Shown here: positions 41,730 to 54,087 of the stretch, one piece after another | How the letters are laid out: every line of letters begins with the position of its first letter | How positions within the stretch are numbered: the first letter of the stretch is position 1 | Origin: Nitrospirota bacterium | GTDB taxonomy: Bacteria > Nitrospirota > UBA9217 | DNA length: 64,000 bases | Reading direction: 5' to 3' | NCBI GenBank assembly: GCA_963754875.1 | Contig: CAVWHO010000007.1 | Span: forward strand, 96,001 to 160,000 | Notes under the pieces: generated by a model | Seen by the model: only the letters and a program-made list of their open reading frames with translations | What the model was told of the DNA's origin: nothing | The model's database searches: none | Position numbers and translations under genes: made by a program

Positions 41730-42740
41730 TCAGAGTGGGAAATGGCAGGCGACATGGTGGGCTCCGCCGGTGTCTTTAAGCCGGGGCTCGGTGGCGGGAT
41801 CCGTACAGACAGACGGTTTGCCCTTGGACTCATAGACCGGACAGCGCGGCGCGAATCGGCAGCCTTCGATCGGCCGCTCGAAATCGAACACGCCCCAGCG
41901 CCCTGCGGGAATGCTTTTGGACTTTCCGGTGACCTCCCTGCTTTGCTTCTCCACGAGTGAGGACCAGAGAATGTGGGTGTACGGATGGCGCGGCTTGTGC
42001 GCAATGCGGTCCGCGACCCCGATCTCCACAATCTTGCCGAGGTACATCACGGCCACCTTGTGGCTGACGAGCTCGACCACGCGAAGATCGTGGGAGATGA
42101 ACAGAAAGGAGAGCCCGAGGTGTTTCTGCAGGTCCCGGAGGAGGTTCACGACCTGCGCCTGGATCGACACGTCGAGGGCGCTCGTTGGTTCATCGGCAAC
42201 GATGAACCGCGCTCCCACGGCAAGCACGCGTGCAATGCCCACTCGCCGCTTTTCGCCGCCCGAAAGTTCACGCGGGAAATTGCCGAGCTTTGCCGTTTTG
42301 AGGTTCACCTGCTCGAGCAAATCGCTGATGCGTTTTTCCACGTCGGCGCCGGCCAGCGGGTGATGGATCGTAATCGCTTCTTTCAAAATATCCCGAATAC
42401 GCATCTTGGGATTGAGAGCAGCGTCCAGATCCTGAAAGATCATCTGCATCTTTCCCCGGAGCCGGCGAAGCTCCCCAGTCGGGACATTCGTAATGTCCCT
42501 GTCCTCGAAGAGGATCCTGCCTGAGGTGGGCTTTTCAAGACGAAGGATGGTCCTGCCGATCGTGGTCTTGCCGCACCCCGACTCGCCGACGAGCCCGACC
42601 GTCTCGTTCTCTTTCAGGCAAAAACTTACCTTATCCACTGCGGGGATGTACTGTGCCTTCTCCTTGAAGGCGGAGAATACCCCCTTGCGGAGAGCAAAGT
42701 GCTTTTTGAGGTCTATGACTTCGAGAATGGTCTTCGGCAT
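41730..42740 (-). CDS. Peptide ABC transporter ATPase (OppF/DppF-like)
   Basis: GESGCGKT, LSGGE, DEPTSALD, HPYT, C-terminal Cys cluster. Confidence 0.92.
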   Translation of the reverse strand: MPKTILEVIDLKKHFALRKGVFSAFKEKAQYIPAVDKVSFCLKENETVGLVGESGCGKTTIGRTILRLEKPTSGRILFEDRDITNVPTGELRRLRGKMQMIFQDLDAALNPKMRIRDILKEAITIHHPLAGADVEKRISDLLEQVNLKTAKLGNFPRELSGGEKRRVGIARVLAVGARFIVADEPTSALDVSIQAQVVNLLRDLQKHLGLSFLFISHDLRVVELVSHKVAVMYLGKIVEIGVADRIAHKPRHPYTHILWSSLVEKQSREVTGKSKSIPAGRWGVFDFERPIEGCRFAPRCPVYESKGKPSVCTDPATEPRLKDTGGAHHVACHFPL

Positions 42741-42756
42741 TAGAACCCTTCATGCA

Positions 42757-42906
42757 ACCATAGATGAACACAGATTAACACTGTAATGATATAACTGAAG
42801 ACGAAGACTTAAGAGCAGAGCGTTGATTCATATTATACATTTAGCTACTTGTTCTATCAGCTCTCATCCGTGTTCATCCGTGTGTCCCGTCCGCGGGACC
42901 CGTGGT
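42757..42906. repeat. Intergenic inverted-repeat element
   Basis: ACCATAGATGAACACAGAT ... ATCCGTGTTCATCCGTGTG...CCGTGGT around an AT-rich core. Confidence 0.6.
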
Positions 42907-42918
42907 TCCCTATGGTAT

Positions 42919-44018
<1,100 letters not shown>

Positions 44019-44022
<4 letters not shown>

Positions 44023-44912
44023 TTGGCTCTCCGGCCTTCGAGTATGTTGTTCAGCCCGTCGCCGAGCAGATGGAAGCCGAGGATGGTAAAGAGAATCGCG
44101 AGCGCAGGGGCTGTCGAGGGCCAGAACGTGCCCTGCATAAAATAATTGGCGCCGGCCTGCACCATGTTGCCCCACGACGGCGTGGGCTCCTGCACGCCGA
44201 AGCCGAGATAACTGAGGCTCGTCTCCATCAGGATGGCCTCTGCCATGCCGAGCGTTGCCTGGATAATGAGGAGCGAGCGGCAGTTATGCCACAGGATGTG
44301 CCGCAGGATGATCGTCCCTGTCGGCACGCCCAGGGCGATATCTGCCTCGATGAAGTTTTTTTGCTTCAAGAAAAGGATCTTGCCTTTGATGAGCGACGCA
44401 ACGACCGGCACGTTCGTGAGCCCCACAACGAGCATGATATAGTAGATGTCCGGCTTGAACGCCGCTATCACGAGCAGGATGAGCACGAGGCGCGGGAAGG
44501 AGTCTACGAGGTTGGTGATATACGTTATGGCTGCGTCGAATTTTCCGCCGCGATAGCCGGCAAGTACTCCGAACAGAGTGCCGAAGAGAAGCGCAATGAA
44601 TATTGCGAGCAGCCCCGGCAGGAAATAGGCTTGAATGCCTACGATCAAGCGAGAAAGCATGTCTCGGCCCATGAAGTCCGTGCCGAGCGGGTGGCCGGGC
44701 GTACCGGGCGCTGCCATCATGAGTTCGAGATCAATGTTTTGCGGGTCGTTCGGCAAAAGGTTGAACGAACCAAGGAGGTAGGAGACAACGACAAGCGCAA
44801 CGATGAGCAGGCCGTAGCCCACGTACGCGAGGTCGACGGCATCCGCCTTCTTCCAGAACGGCAGGTCAGAAAACTCACCAATCTCGCCGGATATTTGGGT
44901 GTAGGTTTTCAT
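44019..44912 (-). CDS. Peptide ABC permease (OppC/DppC-like)
   Basis: HPLGTDFMGRD; LSYLGFGVQEPTPSWG. Confidence 0.9.
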
Positions 44913-44980
44913 AATATTTGGACCAAGGCAACCGTGTTGCCGTTTAAAACGGCACGCCGACACGGTCGGCTCGCTCCCTG

Positions 44981-45946
44981 TTATTCTTTCGACGCTCTTG
45001 GATTCACCGCCACGTACACCACGCTCTGGAACAGGCTGCCCATGCGCACGAGGACCGCGGCCAGGATCGCGATGCCCATGATCACCGGGTAGTCCCGGTC
45101 CTGCGCTGCCTGCCAGGCCATCCTTCCCATGCCGGGCCAGTTGAACACCTGCTCCACGATCACGGCGCCGCCGAGGATGAAAGGAATTTTGGCCGCGATC
45201 ATCTCGGTCACGGGGATGAGCAGGCCTTCCTTAAAGGCATGCTTCCAGACCGACGCGCCTTTGGCCTTCGCCGTACGGATGTAGTCCTCGGCCATCACTC
45301 TTTCCATTTCCTGGCGCAGGAAGCGGATCACCTCGCTGATCGTTCCGTTCCCCACGCCAAGCACGAAGATCGGCAGCAGCATATAGAGCCAGCGGTATTT
45401 CTGTCCCCCGTTCGAAAACCCGAAAGCGAGCGGAAACAAGCCAAGCTTGTGCGTGAAAAAGTAGATGACGATGTAGCCCAGCCAGAACACCGGCAAGGCC
45501 GAGACCACGTAGGAGAACATGGTGAGGGGCCACGAAAGCCTATTGATGCCGCGAACTGCAGAGTAGAGTGCTAGAGGCACGGCGATAAGGAGCGTTATGA
45601 TGAGAGAGCCGATAGTAAGCAGGAACGTATTGAGCCCAACGCGCAGCACTTCCGGGAGTACCGGCAGGCCGGTGCGGATCGAAGTGCCGAAGTTCCCGGT
45701 GAGCATGCCCATAAGCCAGGATAGGTACTGGGCATACCATCCCTTCGAAACACCAAGCGCCTCGCGCACGCCTGCCCGGGCTTCTGCCGTCGGCGTCTGC
45801 CCTTCGAGCAGAACGCTGAACGGGTCGCCAGGGGACAAATAAAGAATGATGAACACCACGAAGCTCACGCCGAGGAGCAGCAGCGCTGTGATCACCAGCT
45901 CCCTGGACAGGGCCAGGGCTATGGGCCGGAAGGCAGAAAGCTTCAT
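44981..45946 (-). CDS. Peptide ABC permease (OppB/DppB-like)
   Basis: PGDP; GNFGTS; DYIRTAKAKG; FNWPGMG; RDYPVI. Confidence 0.92.
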   Translation of the reverse strand: MKLSAFRPIALALSRELVITALLLLGVSFVVFIILYLSPGDPFSVLLEGQTPTAEARAGVREALGVSKGWYAQYLSWLMGMLTGNFGTSIRTGLPVLPEVLRVGLNTFLLTIGSLIITLLIAVPLALYSAVRGINRLSWPLTMFSYVVSALPVFWLGYIVIYFFTHKLGLFPLAFGFSNGGQKYRWLYMLLPIFVLGVGNGTISEVIRFLRQEMERVMAEDYIRTAKAKGASVWKHAFKEGLLIPVTEMIAAKIPFILGGAVIVEQVFNWPGMGRMAWQAAQDRDYPVIMGIAILAAVLVRMGSLFQSVVYVAVNPRASKE

Positions 45947-45956
45947 ACGCTCAATC

Positions 45957-46042
45957 AGCAGAGAGCATAGCGCAGAGGGCAGGGAGCGAAGACAAGAGAT
46001 TCAGACGCTTTCAAGCTCTGCCTTCTGCTCCCTGCTTCATGC
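45957..46042. repeat. Heptamer-based inverted repeat
   Basis: GCAGAGA GCATAGC GCAGAGG GCAGGGA ... TGCCTTC TGCTCCC TGCTTCA TGC. Confidence 0.6.
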
Positions 46043-46047
46043 CGCCT

Positions 46048-47665
46048 CTATTTCTGGTCTTTCTCCTCCATGAACCAATCATCGGCGTAGGAAAAGAACT
46101 TGTAGGGGTGAATGGCCACGCGCCTGATCTTTTTCTGGTATGCAGTATAGTTCGTAAGCGTCCAGAGGAAGGTATAGGGGTTCTCATCGGCCAGTATCGC
46201 GTGGAGCTTCCGGTTGATGGTCCTGCGCTTTTCGTGGTCCAGCGTGAGCTTGCTCTCGTTGATCAGGCCGTCCACTTCCGGGTTGGAATAGCCGCCGAAG
46301 TTGTTCTTCCACGCACCGATCTCGCCGGAGTGAAAAAGAGACGAGATGTCGGCCGAATCGTCGAACACCCAGGACGCGAACATGATGTCGAAGTCGTGCT
46401 CCAGGAACACGTCCTCCTTCCAGGCCTGCCATTCCTTGAACTCCACGTTGATGTCCACGCCGATGTTCTTGAGATAGTTCTTGAACGCGAGCACCACGCG
46501 CTTCACGGCCTCGCTCTCCTTCTCGATCGGCACCTTGAGCGACAGCGCCAGTCGTCTTGCCGTTCTTCTGCATGATGCCATCGGCGCCGCGGCTGAAACC
46601 CGCTTCCTGGAGCAGCGCCTTCGCCTTTTCTGGATCAAAGGGAAGAGGCTGCACGTCGAGGTTGTAGGCCCAGCTGCCGGGCGCGAAGGGGCCGGAGATG
46701 ATGGTCCCCTGGCCGTTAAAGAACGAATCGAGCATCTCCTGCCGGTTCACGGCATAGGTAAAGGCCTTCCGCACGCGCTTGTCGGCCAGGAGCGGGTTCC
46801 GTACGTTGTAGCCGAAGAACGAGTAGGACAGCGCGTTGTAGGGCTGAAGGATGAATCGCTTGTCCCCCTGGATCTCGGGGATGTCGCGCGGGTTCACGAG
46901 CACGATCATGTCGATGGCGTTGAACATGAGCGCCTGGGTCATGATGTTCTGGTCGGCGAACGGCTTGGCAATGAACGTGTCGATGTGCGGACGGCCTTTG
47001 AAGTAGTTGTCGTTCGCCGAAAGGACGATCTCCCGCTCGGCCGTCACGTTTTTTAGCATATACGGACCGGTGCCGATGGGGTTCTGAACAAAGGGATCGT
47101 CACGGGTCAGATAATTTGGATTGGTCGGCCCGTGCTTCGGGATGATCTTGAAGCTGAACTTGGCCAGCGCGTTCAGGATCGGCCGCTTGAGCGTGAACTT
47201 GACGGTATAGTCATCGACCTTTTCCACGCTGTCGATGAACTCATAGCGCACTTTGAGCGGGGTGATGGTCTTAGGATGCATCATGATCTTGTAGGTGAAA
47301 ACCACGTCATCGGCCGTAAACGGCTTGGGTTCCTCTCCCTCTTTCGGATGCCAGGTCACGTCCTTCCGGAGATAAAAGGTGTAAATGCGACCGTCCGGGG
47401 AACGGTCCCACTTCTCCGCCAGCTCGGGAACGATCTCCTGCTTTTCATTGATCCCGACGAGGCCGTTGAAGATGAGCTCGGTCAAGCGCAGCGAAATCAT
47501 CTCGTTGCTCGTGATCGGGTCGAGAGTCGCCGGCCGGCCGTATTCGCCGTAGCTCAGCGTGCCGCCGTCCGGCCGATTGTCCTTCTTGTGCTCTGCCTGG
47601 CCAACAGCAGCCGCTGCCATCACCGCAATGACGCTCAGAAGTAGAACCACCAGCATGCGTTTCAT
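46048..47665 (-). CDS. Peptide ABC substrate-binding protein (OppA/AppA-like; +1 frameshift near 46555)
   Basis: Signal peptide; PELAEKW..SPDG..YTFYLR; PIGTGPY; C-terminus (NFGGYSNPEVD) continues in the next frame. Confidence 0.9.
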
Positions 47666-47684
47666 AATTTCCTCCTCGATAGCA

Positions 47685-47735
47685 TTTCGGAATGCGGATT
47701 GCGGAATGCGATTTGAAATCCGAATTCTACAATCT
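47685..47735. repeat. Heptamer-based inverted repeat
   Basis: TTCGGAA TGCGGAT TGCGGAA TGCG ... AATCCGA ATTCTAC AATCTG. Confidence 0.55.
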
Positions 47736-47737
47736 GT

Positions 47738-49225
47738 TCAATTGATCTTCACGTCCCCGGCGCTCTTGTGTTCCACGGCATAAATGCCCTGCAGCGCTTC
47801 CTGGATCTGGCGCACCTCAGGGAATTGCTTGCTCATCTCGAAGTAGATCTCAAGGGCCTCGGAAAAATTTTTGGTTCGGTAATAGGCTTCCGCGAGATTC
47901 ACGAGCATGGCCGGATCGTTCGCTTCGATTTTGTTCTTGTTGCCCTTGTCGCGTCCTGCCTCCAGGTACGAGGCCGCCTTGGCGTAATCAAGCTTCCGGA
48001 GATAATACCTGCCGACGGCGATCTTGAGGATAGAATATTTTCTGCCTTCTCCAGCCTCGGCCGCGGCTGTGGATTTCTTCACCGTCTGCGCGCATTCGGC
48101 CCTCAGCCTGCTGCAGGCGAACAGGACCTCCGCGAGAAGATCGGGGTCCTCGGGCTGTTTTCGCAGGAGTTCGTCCCAGACGCCCACGGCGTCGGTAACG
48201 CGTCTTTGCTGGTAAAGGTTGGCGCCCTGCCAGACGCGGATGCGGTCTTTATACTGCTGGGGCATCTGCGATGAGGAGACGAAGGCGGCCGTCACTTTTG
48301 CAGACTGATCGAGAGACCCGAAGAGCGCATAGGACTGACCAAGATAAAACTCCGCGGCGTCCTTCACCTTCGGATCAGCCGCTGCTTTTTCCAGGTAGGC
48401 GATGCTCGCCTGACCGTAGATTGTCGCCATATCGCCGAGCAGGGTGAGATCGTAAAAGTTGATGATCTTAGATTTGCCGAGCGTCTCCCGGTACGAATAG
48501 GCCTTGAGTTCCGAACGTTTGAGGAGATCCAGTCCTTTCTCGGTCTGCCCTGCCTTGGCATAGACAGCGAGGATACTTTTGACCATGCGCATCGAGAGCG
48601 GCTTGCCGGACCGTTTCGCTGCTGCAAGGCTCTCGGCAGCGAGGGCCGCGGGATTTTTATCCGCAAGACCCGCTTTGCTGTATGCAGCGGCAAGTTCGGC
48701 CTTCACCTCGGGATCGGAAGAGTCAATCGCTGACCAGAGCTCCTTCGCTTTCTCGGCTTCATGATTCTGATAGTAACACAGGCCGAGACATACCTTGGCC
48801 TCGGACCGGTACCGTGGTTCCAGATTCCCGCTCGCTGAAAATTTTTCCAGGTGGATCGCCGCAGCGGCCGGCTTCCCGGTCTCCATGAGGGCCTCGCCGA
48901 GATAGAAGTCGACGAAATGGCTTCTGGCCGGGCCCCGCGCAGCGGCCAGCTTTTTCAAGCAATCCTGTGATGCAGACGCAGCGGCCTGGAACAACTCGCG
49001 GTGCAGCAGGGCATTCTTGAAGTAGACCATGCCGAGCGTCAGGTTGGCTGTCCCCTGTCTCGGTTGATCGATCGAGGCAGCGTCGGAACGCAGCACTGCA
49101 GCAGCATCCTCGTAATGCTGCTTTTCATAAAGCTTCATCGCCTTCGTCACCGCATCATCTGCAGCAGAGACCTGCACAGCGGTTAGGAGGACAAGAGATG
49201 AAAGAAATAATGCGGTACGTCTCAT
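47738..49225 (-). CDS. Exported TPR protein
   Basis: Signal peptide; repeated TPR-like helices (LGMVYF, LGLCYY, LGQSYA, LAEAYY). Confidence 0.8.
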   Translation of the reverse strand: MRRTALFLSSLVLLTAVQVSAADDAVTKAMKLYEKQHYEDAAAVLRSDAASIDQPRQGTANLTLGMVYFKNALLHRELFQAAASASQDCLKKLAAARGPARSHFVDFYLGEALMETGKPAAAAIHLEKFSASGNLEPRYRSEAKVCLGLCYYQNHEAEKAKELWSAIDSSDPEVKAELAAAYSKAGLADKNPAALAAESLAAAKRSGKPLSMRMVKSILAVYAKAGQTEKGLDLLKRSELKAYSYRETLGKSKIINFYDLTLLGDMATIYGQASIAYLEKAAADPKVKDAAEFYLGQSYALFGSLDQSAKVTAAFVSSSQMPQQYKDRIRVWQGANLYQQRRVTDAVGVWDELLRKQPEDPDLLAEVLFACSRLRAECAQTVKKSTAAAEAGEGRKYSILKIAVGRYYLRKLDYAKAASYLEAGRDKGNKNKIEANDPAMLVNLAEAYYRTKNFSEALEIYFEMSKQFPEVRQIQEALQGIYAVEHKSAGDVKIN

Positions 49226-49322
49226 GCGCGCTCCTGGAATACACTTCAAGGTTCGCCGTGTATCATTCGGGACTGCATACACTTCGAACCGGGGTAAAGA
49301 TCTGTCTTCTTCCTTCCGCTTT

Positions 49323-50582
49323 TCAATCCCTCAGCTTTGCCAGAAAAATCTGGTCCCACTGGTTGATCTGGGCGCGGAACGCAATGGTCCCGTCCCGTGC
49401 GCAGGAAACGTCATGGTTCATCTTCGTATCCGTTTTGAGAGGCACACTCATTTTCAGTTTGACGTCCGCAACGTAGAGCGGATTGTATTCCTGTCGGTCG
49501 TTCTTCACATAGATGATCCGGTTGCTGTCCGGCATCCAGGCAGGCCCGGTTTCCACATCGGCAACAACGTCGATTGCCACGGCTTTTGAAGCGAGTCCCT
49601 CACCCTCCGTGGGGTCCGAACCGTCCGCGGCAATGACGAAGATAGACCACATCCTCGGGTCCCCGGCCGCATTGTAGTTGGAATAAAAGGCGATCTTTTT
49701 TCCGTCCGGCGACCATACCGGCCGAAGATCGTCATAGGTCCAGGTCGTGAGCTTTCTTTTGGATTCCATCGGTTTGGCCACGTCGTTGATAATGACGATG
49801 TCGTGGTTTTCATTGCTGCCGTGCATCATCACGAGCTTTTTGCCGTCCGGTGACCATTGGGGATAGAGATAGGCCTTGCCTCCCCGTGTCAGCCGCGTTA
49901 ACACCCGCGTTGCGAGATTAAGAAGATAGACATCACCGTTTCCTGTACGCCCTGACACGAAGACTATGCGGTCCTCGACCGGCGACCACTGGGCCTGGCC
50001 GTCTTTTTCTCTGTGCCGAGTAAGCCGCACCGGGGCACTGCCACCGAGGTCGAGAAGGTAAATATCGTAGTTGCCCTCTCCGCCGTTACTCATGAAAACG
50101 AACCTTAGTTCGTCGGGCGACCAGGTGATGCCCGCGTTGTAGCTGGTTTCATCGTACACGCCGGGAAAAAAGAACCTCATCTCCGAAAGGCTCCGGGACA
50201 ACAGGTGGAAAACCGTCTGGACCGGCGTACCGTCGGATAACGTGACGCGGATCTCCTTTTTATCTCCGACGCTCCGTTCAAAGGCAATGAACGTTCCCTG
50301 AGGGGACCAGATAGGGTTCGAATCGTTCCGTCCCGATTCGATTGCGACGAGCGGCTTTACGAACAGCGGCTCAGCAGCTTCGGGCTTTTCCCCCTCCGCC
50401 TGACTTCCGGTCTCCGTCGTGGCGGAAGACAGGTCGGCAGGAACGACCGACGACGGTGCGGAACTGCCGCTTCCCGTGTCCGTCGGTGCGGGCAGAACGT
50501 CACCGGCAATCGCCGCAGGGACGATGGCCGCTGCAGAGAGCGCAACGGCCCCTAGGGCGCAATAAAGCTTCCAACCCTTCAC
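49323..50582 (-). CDS. TolB-like PD40 beta-propeller protein
   Basis: Signal peptide; six PxWSPDG-type repeats. Confidence 0.85.
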   Translation of the reverse strand: MKGWKLYCALGAVALSAAAIVPAAIAGDVLPAPTDTGSGSSAPSSVVPADLSSATTETGSQAEGEKPEAAEPLFVKPLVAIESGRNDSNPIWSPQGTFIAFERSVGDKKEIRVTLSDGTPVQTVFHLLSRSLSEMRFFFPGVYDETSYNAGITWSPDELRFVFMSNGGEGNYDIYLLDLGGSAPVRLTRHREKDGQAQWSPVEDRIVFVSGRTGNGDVYLLNLATRVLTRLTRGGKAYLYPQWSPDGKKLVMMHGSNENHDIVIINDVAKPMESKRKLTTWTYDDLRPVWSPDGKKIAFYSNYNAAGDPRMWSIFVIAADGSDPTEGEGLASKAVAIDVVADVETGPAWMPDSNRIIYVKNDRQEYNPLYVADVKLKMSVPLKTDTKMNHDVSCARDGTIAFRAQINQWDQIFLAKLRD

Positions 50583-50596
50583 CAGGCTAACTCCGT

Positions 50597-53170
50597 TTAA
50601 AGGTCCTTGATCTGGTCCCAGTACTTCCGTGCCGAATCCCGTGCCTGATCAAAGGTGCTGTTGCCTTCGAGGCTCTTGGGGAAGAAGTCGAAGTACTCGC
50701 GCCATGCAACATTTGCATTGTTCAGGATGTTGTTTTTCCGCGTGATCTGGTAGAGCTTGTTGTATGAAAGGGCCATGTAGTAGTACGTATCGTGCACGGC
50801 CTCGTCATAGCGGTCATTCGGGAAGAACCTCATGTTTTGTTTTGCGACCTGGAGGTTCTGGATCGCTTTGGCGAAGTTCTGCGCCGCAGCCTCGCGGTCA
50901 GTCTGGATGAGCGAATTGCCCTTCTCGTAATAGGCATGGCCGAGGTTCATGAACGCCACGGAGAATTGCTTATACACGAGCTGCTGGTTCTCGGGCAGCG
51001 AGAGCACGTTCTCAAACTCGCGGATGGCCCCGTCGTAATCACCTGTTTCGTCGAGGTAGATCCGGGCCAGCCGATGGTGCGCCGCGGAATAATCGGGATG
51101 GTCTTTCTCGGTGCTCTTGTACGCCATGACTGCACCGTTGATATCGCCTCTCTGTTCCGCCTGTTCGCCGATCTTGAGGAAGTCCTTGTACAGAACGATC
51201 TTTGCAGCGCCCGTGTAGTTCTCCTCTTTCTTGGCAAACTCGACCACCTCTTCCCAATCCCGGTAGTCCCCGCCGAGCGAGACTTTGACCGTATGGAAGC
51301 CGAGGTTCACCGGTTTTCCGTCGAGGATGGGCGTCCTGCCGATCTTGTCGCCGTCCACGTACACGTCAGCGCCAGTAGGCCGGGAGTTGATCGTGAACAC
51401 GGCGTTGTTGACCAAAAGCGTGAATTCTTTGGTGTCCTTGTTCTTCTCGATCGTGACCTTCTCGGTCACGGGCTGGTAGCCGTGCCGGTACAGCATGAGC
51501 GTGAAGTTCTTGTTGAGCCTGACCGGGACCTCGGCCGTGCCGTCGGGAGCGGTCGAGCCGAGCCACTCGTCGTTCACGTAGATGTTCACCGCGTTGAGCG
51601 GAGAAACGTTGGGAGGCAGGCCTCCCTTGGCCAGGAGGACGAAGTAGTTGCGCACGCTCTCTTCCTCGCCTTCCCGATAGATGCGCCGGACCACCCGGTC
51701 GCCGAAGGCGATCTTCTCGTCTTTTTTCAGGTCCTCCACCTCGGCCCATGACCCGTTCTCTTCGGATTTCTTGACCCGAAGCCTGCCGGTCTCGCTGTAT
51801 CCCGATATCTTTCCCGTCTCATCCATGCGCGGCGTCATGAGCGTAAAATCCGTTCCGCTGGAGATCTTATAGCCGCTCTTCCCGAGGTTGATCCGGTAAC
51901 GTTCACCGTCAACGCCGATTACGGCGCCTTCGAAGGGAAATCGCTCGATCACGGCTCTCGCGATGTCCTTGGCCGCGCCGTTGATGTTGCCTGCGCTCTT
52001 TGCCCGCGTGATCTGGGAGAGGATCAGCGTGCCACCGGAGGTATAGAACTTGGTTTCGATCAGGAAGCCCTTCTCATCCTTTGAAACGCTGCCCAGGATG
52101 ATCATGTCAACAGTCTTCCTGAGCGGCGTCTCCCGCCATCCCTTGGCGGTGATCTTATCGATGTTTAATTTATCGTGTTTCATCTCTGACTGGAGGGTTT
52201 CAGACGGGACCTCGCGGAAGCAGGAATATTTATAGAGCTGCGCCGCCACGGCACTTTCGGTCTGCGTAAGGATGTCGTTGAGATCGGTATTGGCAGTGTT
52301 GCTCACGAACCGGTAAATGCCGGTCCTGATCGCTTTTGGTGATGTAGGATAGAAGTACCGATTGACGTTGACCTCGTCTTTCAGAACGATGGTGGTCTTC
52401 CAAGACTCAGGGATATACCCCGGGGCGGACAGCGTGAGCGGCACCCTCTTGCCCGGCTCACCGTCGTAGGACCAGGTCAACGCGCCCTTCGCATCGGTCT
52501 TGCCCACGTCCTTATTGTTGATGGTTACGCTCAATCCCGGGATGCCGCTCGTCTGGCCGTACTCTTCCGTACGGGCGTTGATCGTCACGGTCACGCGCTT
52601 GGTGAGCTTGGCTTCAATCGTCTGGCCCGGCTCCACGGCCCCGGTCTTGTGCCAGGCTGCATATCCAGATTTTTTCACCGCCAGGTCGATGCCGTTCTCG
52701 GGCAGGTCCTTGTACTCGTAGACGAACCGGCCGGACCCGTCGGTCTTGCCGACCTCTTTGCCCGTTGCCCTGACAGCGGCGTCCGGGACCGGAGAACCCT
52801 TCTCGGTCACGACAAGTGTTACGAACCGCGTCGCGGGAAGATCGGCCGTCAATGAGTACGTATCCATGGCCCCTGACTTGGAGAGTTTCATGACGAACGA
52901 GCCCTTCCAGGGCTTGATATGATAGCCCGGGATTTCCTTTGAAACAACGACCTCGACGTCCGCCCCGGGTTTCCTCCTGATGACCCTGGAGAAAACGCCG
53001 TTTTCGTCGGTAACGCCTTGTTCTTCATTGTCCACGATCACCTTCGCGTGGGCCGCTGGCTGGCCGTTCATGCCGGCCTTCACTTTGAGTTCGAGCTTTT
53101 CTCCTGCACAGGCAAAGAGCAGGGACGACACCATTACCAGTATCGCTGTATGTACTGCACGCTTAATCAT
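50597..53170 (-). CDS. Large lipoprotein: Ig-like repeats, CsgG/FlgT-like region, PEGA and TPR
   Basis: Lipobox LFAC; four GxTDxxG-type repeats; PEGA motif INSRPTGADVYVDGDKIGRTP; C-terminal TPRs. Confidence 0.8.
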   Translation of the reverse strand: MIKRAVHTAILVMVSSLLFACAGEKLELKVKAGMNGQPAAHAKVIVDNEEQGVTDENGVFSRVIRRKPGADVEVVVSKEIPGYHIKPWKGSFVMKLSKSGAMDTYSLTADLPATRFVTLVVTEKGSPVPDAAVRATGKEVGKTDGSGRFVYEYKDLPENGIDLAVKKSGYAAWHKTGAVEPGQTIEAKLTKRVTVTINARTEEYGQTSGIPGLSVTINNKDVGKTDAKGALTWSYDGEPGKRVPLTLSAPGYIPESWKTTIVLKDEVNVNRYFYPTSPKAIRTGIYRFVSNTANTDLNDILTQTESAVAAQLYKYSCFREVPSETLQSEMKHDKLNIDKITAKGWRETPLRKTVDMIILGSVSKDEKGFLIETKFYTSGGTLILSQITRAKSAGNINGAAKDIARAVIERFPFEGAVIGVDGERYRINLGKSGYKISSGTDFTLMTPRMDETGKISGYSETGRLRVKKSEENGSWAEVEDLKKDEKIAFGDRVVRRIYREGEEESVRNYFVLLAKGGLPPNVSPLNAVNIYVNDEWLGSTAPDGTAEVPVRLNKNFTLMLYRHGYQPVTEKVTIEKNKDTKEFTLLVNNAVFTINSRPTGADVYVDGDKIGRTPILDGKPVNLGFHTVKVSLGGDYRDWEEVVEFAKKEENYTGAAKIVLYKDFLKIGEQAEQRGDINGAVMAYKSTEKDHPDYSAAHHRLARIYLDETGDYDGAIREFENVLSLPENQQLVYKQFSVAFMNLGHAYYEKGNSLIQTDREAAAQNFAKAIQNLQVAKQNMRFFPNDRYDEAVHDTYYYMALSYNKLYQITRKNNILNNANVAWREYFDFFPKSLEGNSTFDQARDSARKYWDQIKDL

Positions 53171-53333
53171 ACGAAGCCTCCTTGGTAAAACGGGACAACG
53201 TGAAAAAGCATCAATGCCCTTGTACGAATGTCAAAATCTGACTTTGAGACAGAGCAACGCGGAAAAGAATATCTCAAGCAACCGCGTTTTCACTGGCTCA
53301 CCGTGATGTCCGGGAAACACGGACTCCGTCGTA

Positions 53334-53783
53334 TTACATCGTCGGCGGCTGGATGTTCACCTCGCCGGGATTCACGATCTTGTCCTCGTCCGACTTTGAT
53401 CCCTCGATGCTCTTTAGCTTGCCTTCGGGGATCTTCCTGAGCTTGAACTCCACTTTCTTGCTGCCGAACTGGGTGATCTCGACAGACTGCGTCTCGGTCA
53501 GGTAGCCGATCCTGCTCGCTTCCACCTTGTACATCCCCGGGACGATGTAGTCCTTCACTGATTCAAACTTGCCCGCTGCGTCAACGTTGACGGCTTGCGA
53601 CGCTTTTTCCAGCGTCGTGGTCGTATTGATCATATTCACCACGGTTCCTTGCGGGCTTTCGTTGGTGATTGGGACCGGCTGCATCTTCGCGTCCAGAAGC
53701 TGGACCGTACCGTAGATCTTGGGAGCGCATGATGCCAGGGAGAGCGCCAGTACGGCGAGCAGAAAAGTGTGTCTTGACTTCAT
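53334..53783 (-). CDS. Small lipoprotein (carboxypeptidase regulatory-like fold)
   Basis: AGGAGG RBS; lipobox LASC; GKF...PGMYKVEASRIGY. Confidence 0.8.
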   Translation of the reverse strand: MKSRHTFLLAVLALSLASCAPKIYGTVQLLDAKMQPVPITNESPQGTVVNMINTTTTLEKASQAVNVDAAGKFESVKDYIVPGMYKVEASRIGYLTETQSVEITQFGSKKVEFKLRKIPEGKLKSIEGSKSDEDKIVNPGEVNIQPPTM

Positions 53784-53853: not shown

Positions 53854-53898
53854 AAAAAAAAGCCGCCAAATGAACAAAGACAACGTTCTTTGGCGGCT
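53854..53898 (-). terminator. Riboswitch expression-platform terminator
   Basis: Minus strand AGCCGCCAAAGAAC...GTTCATTTGGCGGCT followed by a T-run; 5' arm overlaps the aptamer 3' end. Confidence 0.85.
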
Positions 53899-54021
53899 CG
53901 ACTCGCGTATAAAACAGCATGCACCTTCCGTCGGATTGTTGCGTCGAGCGGAAATATTCCTGTTTTACGTAGCTTCGTAGCTCTGCGCCCCCAGGTTTCC
54001 CGGGGTTTGCTCTGAGCAAAG
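53888..54021 (-). ncRNA. GEMM-I cyclic-dinucleotide riboswitch, A20 variant (predicted 3',3'-cGAMP)
   Basis: Minus strand CUUUG-CUCAG-A-GCAAACCCCGG-GAAA-CCUGGGGGCGC-AGAGCUACGAAGCUACG...UACGCGAGUCGAGCCG-C-CAAAG; P1 CUUUG/CAAAG, GAAA tetraloop and receptor, A47 and C92 equivalents. Confidence 0.85.
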
Positions 54022-54058
54022 GATATGTTAACCTAGAACTCGATGCAACGACAGTAGA

Positions 54059-54087
54059 AATTTACCATGCCGTCTTCATCTTGTCAA
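54059..54087 (-). promoter_or_regulatory. Sigma70 promoter of the riboswitch operon
   Basis: TTGACA-N17-TAAATT with an extended TG. Confidence 0.7.

What the first reader, a model, noticed from the sequence alone, without database searches (positions are those of the whole stretch)
53854..54087. Predicted 3',3'-cGAMP (c-AMP-GMP) ON riboswitch: GEMM-I aptamer with A20/C92
Seen in sequence (minus strand): a TTGACA-N17-TAAATT promoter, then a complete GEMM-I fold (P1 CUUUG/CAAAG, GCAAA, GAAA tetraloop, GCGC-A, receptor GCUACG/UACGC), then a strong terminator whose 5' arm includes the C92 equivalent (53893) and the 3' strand of P1. Aligned by eye to Vibrio Vc2 (GCACAG-G20-GCAAA), this RNA reads GCUCAG-A-GCAAA, so it has A at position 20 (54011). 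Established: G20 marks c-di-GMP binders, while A20 marks the GEMM-Ib class that binds 3',3'-cGAMP selectively or promiscuously, as described in Geobacter. Inference: ligand binding blocks the terminator and switches the operon on, implying cGAMP signalling in this lineage.
Basis: partly seen in the sequence, partly recalled or inferred. Interest (0 to 1): 0.85.

Follow-up and report, generated by a model that had tools for sequence, protein, structure and literature searches.

The report
A20 cyclic-dinucleotide ON riboswitch, Nitrospirota
A conserved RNA switch of the known GEMM-I family sits in front of a cell-envelope and transport gene cluster in an uncultured bacterium that is likely a Nitrospirota, and it likely turns these genes on in response to the rare signal cGAMP, though binding is untested and c-di-GMP is not excluded.

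Summary
Observation confirmed. 53889-54021(-) matches Rfam c-di-GMP-I at 46.7 bits (cut-off 35), with A at position 20, C92, a conserved promoter and a terminator that overlaps P1 (ON wiring, inferred). The switch precedes the same lipoprotein/TPR/ABC cluster in 33 of 59 related loci, always with A20. A20 alone does not fix the ligand: published A20 aptamers range from cGAMP-selective to c-di-GMP-preferring. Added support for cGAMP: across 301 genomes of the phylum, this subtype (A20 with G48; 98 of 98 sites) occurs in 59 of 143 genomes with a Hypr-type Ser-GGDEF and 1 of 158 without (kin not independent). This genome also has an RxxQ HD-GYP. Against: the family's only Ser enzyme found has GGEEF, a combination published as inactive, and this genome's copy is frameshifted. 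Best reading: a cGAMP-responsive, possibly bispecific, ON switch (about 0.68). The scan noted this orthologous switch before in two other genomes (e1-9501245, e1-9804087). New variant of a known kind; interest 0.5.

The parts
54059..54087 (-). sigma-70-type promoter (TTGACA, 17 nt, extended -10); predicted
   Evidence: same layout upstream of 32 of 33 homologous aptamers
53888..54021 (-). GEMM-I (RF01051) aptamer, P1-P2-P3
   Evidence: 46.7 bits, cut-off 35; covariation
54017..54021 (-). P1 5' strand (pairs with 53892-53888)
   Evidence: 5 pairs kept in 31 of 31 sequences
54011..54011 (-). A at specificity position 20 (Vc2 numbering)
   Evidence: A in 31 of 31 aligned sequences
53985..54010 (-). 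P2 with G21-C46 pair and GAAA tetraloop (53999-53996)
53983..53984 (-). A47 (ligand-stacking base) and the non-consensus G48
   Evidence: G48 sites carry A20 in 98 of 98 cases
53905..53973 (-). tetraloop-receptor halves (53973-53968, 53909-53905) enclosing a 58-nt P3 extension that varies from 21 to 67 nt in 29 parsed sequences (28 homologues and the window)
53893..53893 (-). C92, Watson-Crick partner of the ligand's G-beta; also part of the terminator 5' arm
53854..53898 (-). intrinsic terminator hairpin and U tract, mutually exclusive with P1 and the base of P3
53334..53783 (-). first gene under the switch: 149-aa predicted lipoprotein, weak CarboxypepD_reg match
50597..53170 (-). 857-aa predicted lipoprotein with CarboxypepD_reg, PEGA and TPR domains
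49323..50582 (-). TolB-like PD40 beta-propeller protein
47738..49282 (-). 514-aa TPR protein
41730..47665 (-). Opp/Dpp-type ABC transporter: binding protein (frameshift near 46550), two permeases, two ATPases
   Evidence: gene order conserved

Best explanation
This is a GEMM-I riboswitch, predicted to act as a transcriptional ON switch that likely responds in the cell to 3',3'-cGAMP, possibly with c-di-GMP as a second ligand. Shown: the fold, A20/C92, the conservation, and the overlap of terminator and aptamer. Inferred mechanism: RNA polymerase starts near 54052. Once P1 is complete (53888), the dinucleotide can bind the three-way junction, with G-beta pairing to C92, A-alpha to A20, and A47 stacking between them. 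Binding holds C92 and the P1 3' strand, so the terminator (53898-53854) cannot form and the lipoprotein/TPR/TolB-like/ABC cluster is transcribed. Without ligand the terminator wins. By secondary-structure energy the terminator state is far more stable (-72.8 against -44.2 kcal/mol), so the decision would be kinetic, in a window of roughly 20-30 nt. The likely writer is the family's GAF-GGDEF protein with Ser at the base-reading position. The likely eraser is the RxxQ HD-GYP. Both are untested.
For: RF01051 above cut-off with all pocket bases. The same wiring is published for the cGAMP ON switch pilM, whose terminator sequesters the C92 equivalent (PMC9262584). A20 is kept in 33 of 33 orthologous aptamers, with position 20 left free in the search. 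In 301 genomes of the phylum, G48 sites carry A20 in 98 of 98 cases, while A48 sites carry G20 in 95, A20 in 15 and other bases in 3 of 113. The A20/G48 subtype lies in 59 of 143 genomes with a Ser-type GGDEF pattern and 1 of 158 without. Over both patterns, sites in Ser-less genomes are 42 G20 and 2 A20, against 53 G20 and 111 A20 in Ser-bearing genomes. This genome has one Ser-GGDEF among 28 PF00990 matches, whose intact orthologue has GacA (6D9M) as best PDB match with Tyr304 and Ser348 aligned. It also has an RxxQ HD-GYP, the published cGAMP-phosphodiesterase mark, with Q in 18 of 19 readable orthologous loci. A Desulfobacca A-variant showed improved cGAMP binding (PMC9481103).
Against: No binding or read-through data. 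A20 aptamers bind c-di-GMP through a protonated adenine, and Cbe 1-2 prefers c-di-GMP about 15-fold. The pocket here (C17, G21-C46) resembles bispecific Vc2 G20A more than Gs1761 (A17, C21-G46; Vc2 bases partly recalled). The family's Ser enzyme has GGEEF in 35 of 35 loci and 120 of 120 homologues, and Ser348/GGEEF is published as inactive. This genome's copy is frameshifted near its N-terminus. Tyr304 also occurs in 3 of 15 Asp paralogues read. The RxxQ protein lacks the Glu of the usual HHE motif. The co-occurrence follows family lines, so it rests on few independent events. In this genome the aptamer before omcS-like genes, which are cGAMP-regulated in Geobacter, has G20. Nearest-neighbour folding does not give the aptamer as the lowest-energy state even before the terminator is made (-37.7 against -50.3).
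Confidence: 0.68

Rival explanations
1. The switch is a c-di-GMP ON switch in practice. A20 is tolerated through protonation, as in Cbe 1-2, and is fixed for another reason, for example a short hairpin in which U16 pairs with A20 in the ligand-free state. The Ser/GGEEF protein would be an inactive or receptor-type GGDEF.
For: Cbe 1-2 and Vc2 G20A bind c-di-GMP as well as or better than cGAMP. The genome has many canonical Asp GGDEFs. Ser348/GGEEF was inactive in GacA mutants. The P1 5' strand and J1/2 can fold into a small hairpin that pairs A20 (-3.1 kcal/mol). Cell-envelope genes are typical c-di-GMP targets (recalled).
Against: The same genomes keep ordinary G20 aptamers (4 of 7 over the cut-off here; 34 of 45 sampled in five relatives), so a fixed A20/G48 subtype is unnecessary for c-di-GMP alone. 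A20 sites are nearly absent from genomes without the Ser enzyme. The hairpin's closing pair is broken in 2 of 29 parsed sequences and is weaker in paralogues. Catalytic motifs of the Ser enzyme are invariant in 120 of 120 homologues.
Confidence: 0.24
2. The A20/G48 pocket reads a different ligand, such as c-di-AMP or another G-containing cyclic dinucleotide.
For: G48 departs from the Rfam consensus next to the alpha site and is fixed. Two homologues scored best with the variant model c-di-GMP-I-GGC, though below its cut-off.
Against: C92 is invariant and requires a guanine at the beta site, which argues against c-di-AMP. The co-occurring enzymes carry cGAMP marks.
Confidence: 0.05
3. The aptamer is a decayed relic and the element is a constitutive attenuator.
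For: The long P3 insert and a modest score (46.7 bits). The aptamer is not the lowest-energy fold. One homologue is split by about 400 nt (L047).
Against: Pocket bases, P1 and the C44-G83 pair are kept in 31 of 31 sequences while P2 and P3 covary and the insert varies freely.
Confidence: 0.03

Closest known systems
Geobacter GEMM-Ib cGAMP riboswitches (Gs1761 before pgcA; pilM ON switch)
   Same: GEMM-I fold, A at position 20, C92, and a terminator that sequesters C92; upstream of exported lipoprotein genes
   Different: C17, G21-C46 and G48 here, against A17, C21-G46 and A48 in Gs1761 (numbers mapped by offset); GAAA loop with receptor and a 58-nt P3 extension; controls a TPR/TolB-like/ABC cluster, not cytochromes or pili; different phylum
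Vibrio cholerae Vc2 c-di-GMP-I riboswitch and its G20A mutant
   Same: J1/2 and G21-C46 pocket layout, GAAA tetraloop and receptor (Rfam alignment; Vc2 bases partly recalled); G20A is bispecific
   Different: natural A20, G48 instead of A48, long P3 extension, transcription-terminator platform
Clostridium beijerinckii Cbe 1-2
   Same: natural A20 GEMM-I aptamer
   Different: measured to prefer c-di-GMP, 30 against 463 nM; its sequence was not compared here
Hypr GGDEF synthases GacA (6D9M) and the GAF-GGDEF GacB, as the candidate writer
   Same: Asn339, Ser348 and Tyr304 equivalents; GAF-GGDEF architecture as in GacB
   Different: GGEEF motif and a 2-residue insertion that disrupts the I-site RxxD spacing

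Membership tests
GEMM-I / c-di-GMP-I (RF01051) | covariance-model score above the gathering cut-off | tested here: met
   46.7 bits against 35
GEMM-I / c-di-GMP-I (RF01051) | three-way junction P1-P2-P3 with tetraloop and receptor, C44-G83, A47, C92 | tested here: met
GEMM-I / c-di-GMP-I (RF01051) | in a 5' leader with an expression platform | tested here: met
   promoter and terminator conserved; no expression data
c-di-GMP-specific GEMM-I | G at position 20 | tested here: not met
   A at 54011
GEMM-Ib (cGAMP) | A at position 20 with C92 | tested here: met
GEMM-Ib (cGAMP) | measured binding of 3',3'-cGAMP, selective or shared | not testable with these tools
   needs in-line probing, ITC or a biosensor
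GEMM-Ib (cGAMP) | host has a cGAMP synthase | tested here: inconclusive
   one Ser/Tyr GGDEF with GGEEF, frameshifted in this assembly; a crude CD-NTase motif scan found nothing
Hypr GGDEF (candidate synthase, C16:84190-85113) | Ser/Thr at position 348 | tested here: met
Hypr GGDEF (candidate synthase, C16:84190-85113) | non-Arg cross-dimer residue (Tyr304 in GacA) | tested here: met
   Tyr in 120 of 120; also in 3 of 15 Asp paralogues
Hypr GGDEF (candidate synthase, C16:84190-85113) | GGDE[F/Y] motif together with Ser348 | tested here: not met
   GGEEF in 35 of 35 loci and 120 of 120 homologues; rule
cGAMP HD-GYP phosphodiesterase (candidate, C21:233602-234810) | Rxx(Q/N) in place of Rxx(K/R) | tested here: met
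cGAMP HD-GYP phosphodiesterase (candidate, C21:233602-234810) | cGAMP hydrolysis | not testable with these tools
   HD and GYP motifs present, usual HHE Glu absent
c-di-GMP-I-GGC (RF03167) | score above its cut-off of 59 | tested here: not met
   RF01051 was the best clan match for the window; two homologues scored 47.5 and 42

The most novel reading that the evidence does not exclude
Nitrospirota carry a distinct GEMM-I subtype in which G48 is coupled to A20 and makes the pocket cGAMP-selective. In this family the signal is made by a GAF-GGEEF enzyme with Ser348/Tyr304 and a two-residue insertion, an active cGAMP synthase of a type that the published Goldilocks model says cannot work.
Probability: 0.3. 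Interest if true: 0.72.

Novelty: new variant of a known kind. Interest (0 to 1): 0.5.

Why it matters
If right, cGAMP signalling, characterised mainly in Geobacter, Myxococcus and Bdellovibrio, runs through about half of the sampled Nitrospirota genomes and controls envelope and transport genes as well as cytochromes. The A20/G48 coupling offers a single-base test of what makes an A20 aptamer selective, which Keller 2018 left open. The natural Ser348/GGEEF family directly tests the claim that only GGDEF enzymes can evolve into cGAMP synthases. If wrong, it is an ordinary c-di-GMP switch and a warning that A20 is not diagnostic.

Tried and rejected
Whole-window Rfam scan at gathering threshold: 0 hits, a filter loss shown. 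The same mode found nothing in 15 of the 22 non-Nitrospirota loci that have upstream sequence, so it is weak evidence there. A profile of this subtype found no match in any of those loci. The simple terminator scan missed the hairpin. Sequencing runs: no RNA holder listed. Single-sequence structure prediction of the Ser-GGDEF was unusable, pLDDT 32. Independent origin of the Ser enzyme from its Asp paralogue: the quick tree grouped them, but the AU test did not reject one Ser clade (p 0.384, one frameshifted row left out, trait columns dropped), so it is not claimed. A tandem G20+A20 logic gate at L195 is not claimed: the two aptamers are about 410 nt apart with a terminator between them. NCBIfam gave no match for the first gene, so the cluster's substrate is unknown. 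Ren 2015 and Kellenberger 2015 were not held, so I could not check whether an A20/G48 aptamer was among those tested. Fisher P values were computed from hand-transcribed counts and overstate support, because kin are not independent.

Full report
Observation. Rfam's fast gathering scan of the window found nothing, but the permissive scan gave RF01051 c-di-GMP-I at 53889-54021 with 46.7 bits, cut-off 35, E 5.1e-08, and a 49-nt unaligned stretch in P3. In that alignment the base before G21-C22-AAA is A (54011) and C92 is at 53893. Keller 2018 defines G20 and C92 as the two ligand-pairing bases and A as the GEMM-Ib replacement (PMC6140456; I read parts 1, 2 and 4 of 7). Numbers for other positions come from the Rfam alignment, from an offset to Gs1761 numbering (PMC6274999 passages) and from recalled Vc2 numbering.

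Conservation. The first downstream gene was found in 27 of 61 genomes searched, and 23 of 24 loci from this family, the window's own included, carry the full aptamer upstream. A scan of species-representative genomes gave 59 loci. Of these, 33 carry the aptamer: 31 titled Nitrospirota, one Betaproteobacteria, one Geobacteraceae. This is the basis for placing the window in Nitrospirota (inferred). One further locus has the aptamer split by about 400 nt, three begin inside the gene, and 22 from other phyla lack this subtype. In an alignment of 31 of the 34 sequences, A20, G21-C46, A47, G48, C44-G83 and C92 are invariant. P1 is kept in all rows, and P2 and P3 show two-sided changes at 8 pairs (covariation score 0.142 against 0.073 shuffled, 0 of 500; the pair-count measure was reached by 122 of 500 shuffles). 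The P3 extension varies from 21 to 67 nt in the 29 sequences parsed; 5 did not fit the expression. A TTGACA-17/18-TG-TAnnnT promoter lies upstream in 32 of 33 loci.

Expression platform. The terminator at 53898-53854 folds at -23.4 kcal/mol, and similar hairpins form in the other 28 parsed sequences (-18.8 to -32.2). Its 5' arm contains the base of P3, C92 and the P1 3' strand, so it excludes the aptamer. Its core pairs are 97% kept but show no two-sided change. With secondary-structure energies only, the full leader prefers the terminator state (-72.8 against -44.2 kcal/mol for the aptamer-constrained fold), and even the pre-terminator transcript has a lower-energy alternative (-50.3 against -37.7). 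These numbers omit tertiary contacts and ligand, so I infer kinetic control. The layout matches the pilM cGAMP ON switch (PMC9262584 passages).

Regulated genes. Downstream lie a 149-aa predicted lipoprotein, an 857-aa PEGA/TPR protein, a TolB-like propeller, a TPR protein and an Opp/Dpp-type ABC transporter. This order is kept as far as the loci reach, also in Gallionellaceae, Desulfobacteraceae and Rokubacteria, which lack the switch. Co-transcription of the whole cluster is inferred from gene order. Its substrate is unknown.

Does A20 mean cGAMP? Not alone. Vc2 G20A binds c-di-GMP at 53 nM and cGAMP at 120 nM. Gs1761 was reported at 0.53 nM for cGAMP against 660 nM for c-di-GMP by probing, but 290 against 710 nM by ITC, and Cbe 1-2 prefers c-di-GMP, 30 against 463 nM. 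A Desulfobacca A-variant gained cGAMP affinity (PMC9481103 passages). The pocket here has C17 and G21-C46, unlike Gs1761, and so resembles the bispecific mutant, except for G48.

The A20/G48 subtype. With position 20 free and G48 fixed, a pattern matched 98 sites in 60 of 301 genomes of the phylum, and all 98 have A20; the reversed control pattern matched none. With A48 fixed, 113 sites in 67 genomes gave 95 G20, 15 A20 and 3 irregular matches. The two patterns differ slightly in their other fixed bases, and both see only G21-C22 aptamers. The subtype also sits at paralogous loci before other lipoprotein genes. These sites may descend from one ancestor, so the coupling is a lead, not proof of co-evolution.

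Writer and eraser. This genome has 7 RF01051 hits over the cut-off: four G20 and three A20. Among 28 PF00990 matches, one has Ser at the base-reading position. It is a GAF-GGDEF protein, frameshifted near its N-terminus here (I infer an assembly error, as two other genes show similar breaks). It was found in 34 of 36 other family genomes. The intact orthologue L100 has GacA (6D9M) as best PDB match, with Tyr304 and Ser348 aligned. Its motif is GGEEF in 35 of 35 loci read and in the best 120 of 459 homologues, with a two-residue insertion, and its catalytic motifs are invariant. Hallberg 2019 reports that Ser348/GGEEF is inactive and that natural Ser/Thr enzymes have GGDE[F/Y] exclusively (PMC6456294, sections 12 and 13 and passages). 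A GGDDF variant was later found active, so the motif rules have exceptions (PMC8835794 section 7). Twenty of 20 Ser-type loci fetched from other families have the standard GGDEF. The tree does not settle whether the family's enzyme arose separately. Following a lead from e1-9512283, I found an RxxQ HD-GYP at C21:233602-234810, the mark described by Wright et al. (10.1101/600031 passages). Orthologues were found in 18 of 24 other family genomes, with Q in 18 of 19 readable loci.

Phylum-wide co-occurrence. The Ser-GGDEF pattern matched 143 of 301 genomes and split by family: 55 of 56 in this family, and 0 of 57, 0 of 20, 0 of 25, 0 of 12, 0 of 27 and 0 of 8 in six others. The A20/G48 subtype lies in 59 Ser-bearing genomes and one without, which is 90% complete. 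Ser-less genomes do have GEMM-I sites, but 42 are G20 and 2 are A20, against 53 and 111 in Ser-bearing genomes (three irregular matches left out). This is the strongest argument for cGAMP, weakened by shared descent. Against a strict link, the aptamer before this genome's omcS-like genes has G20 while two in a relative have A20.

Novelty. The class is known. Three searches that combined Nitrospir with cGAMP, Hypr or riboswitch terms listed 2, 1 and 0 papers, and the two papers, checked by passage, do not link cGAMP to this phylum. A search for Hypr with GGEEF listed five papers; of the two I read in part, neither describes a natural active Ser/GGEEF enzyme, and three I saw only as listings. 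The original PNAS and Cell Reports papers were not available (Nelson 2015 and Hallberg 2016 not tried), and their tables or supplements may already list such aptamers or enzymes. PMC5888326 and PMC5473149 were read as passages and added only background. The scan has noted this orthologous switch twice before and Nitrospirota cGAMP sets twice; these are unchecked notes and are not counted as support.

Verdict. A real GEMM-I riboswitch with ON wiring. The ligand is likely cGAMP, alone or shared with c-di-GMP (0.68); c-di-GMP only 0.24; other readings 0.08. New variant of a known kind, interest 0.5.

Noticed in passing
G000:C16:84190-85113 (L040), orthologue L100:1495-2658: Family-wide GAF-GGDEF with Ser348 and Tyr304 but GGEEF and a 2-residue insertion, a natural exception to the published Ser/GGDEF-only rule; frameshifted near the N-terminus in this assembly.
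   Followed up: yes
G000:C21:233602-234810 (L193:603-1811, minus): HD-GYP with RxxQ (cGAMP-phosphodiesterase mark), conserved in the family, lacking the usual HHE Glu.
   Followed up: partly
G000:C13:57864-57940 (L007, L170): Second A20 aptamer, with C21-G46 as in Geobacter Gs1761, before a 565-aa predicted lipoprotein with two CxxCH motifs and Cys-rich repeats.
   Followed up: partly
G000:C8:410217-410295 (L172): G20 aptamer before OmcS-like multiheme cytochrome genes (6EF8 match, E 1e-95); comparable loci L198 and L204 in a relative carry A20, so position 20 differs between them.
   Followed up: partly
L195:780-1360: A G20 aptamer with its own terminator about 410 nt upstream of an A20/G48 aptamer before one lipoprotein gene; possible two-signal control.
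   Followed up: partly
L047:9414-9939 (same sequence as L019): Orthologous aptamer degenerate and split by about 400 nt, with the terminator retained.
   Followed up: partly
window 41730-53783: Nine-gene lipoprotein/PEGA-TPR/TolB-like/TPR/ABC cluster whose order is kept across Nitrospirota, Thermodesulfobacteriota, Gallionellaceae and Rokubacteria; function undescribed in the libraries searched.
   Followed up: partly
window ~46550: Frameshift in the ABC binding-protein gene (ORFs 46184-47665 and 46048-46638); likely an assembly error.
   Followed up: partly
G000:C21:199640-200083 and 197216-197659: Two matching copies of an IS200/IS605-like transposase ORF (label recalled) flank the lipoprotein gene downstream of the best-scoring G20 aptamer.
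   Followed up: no
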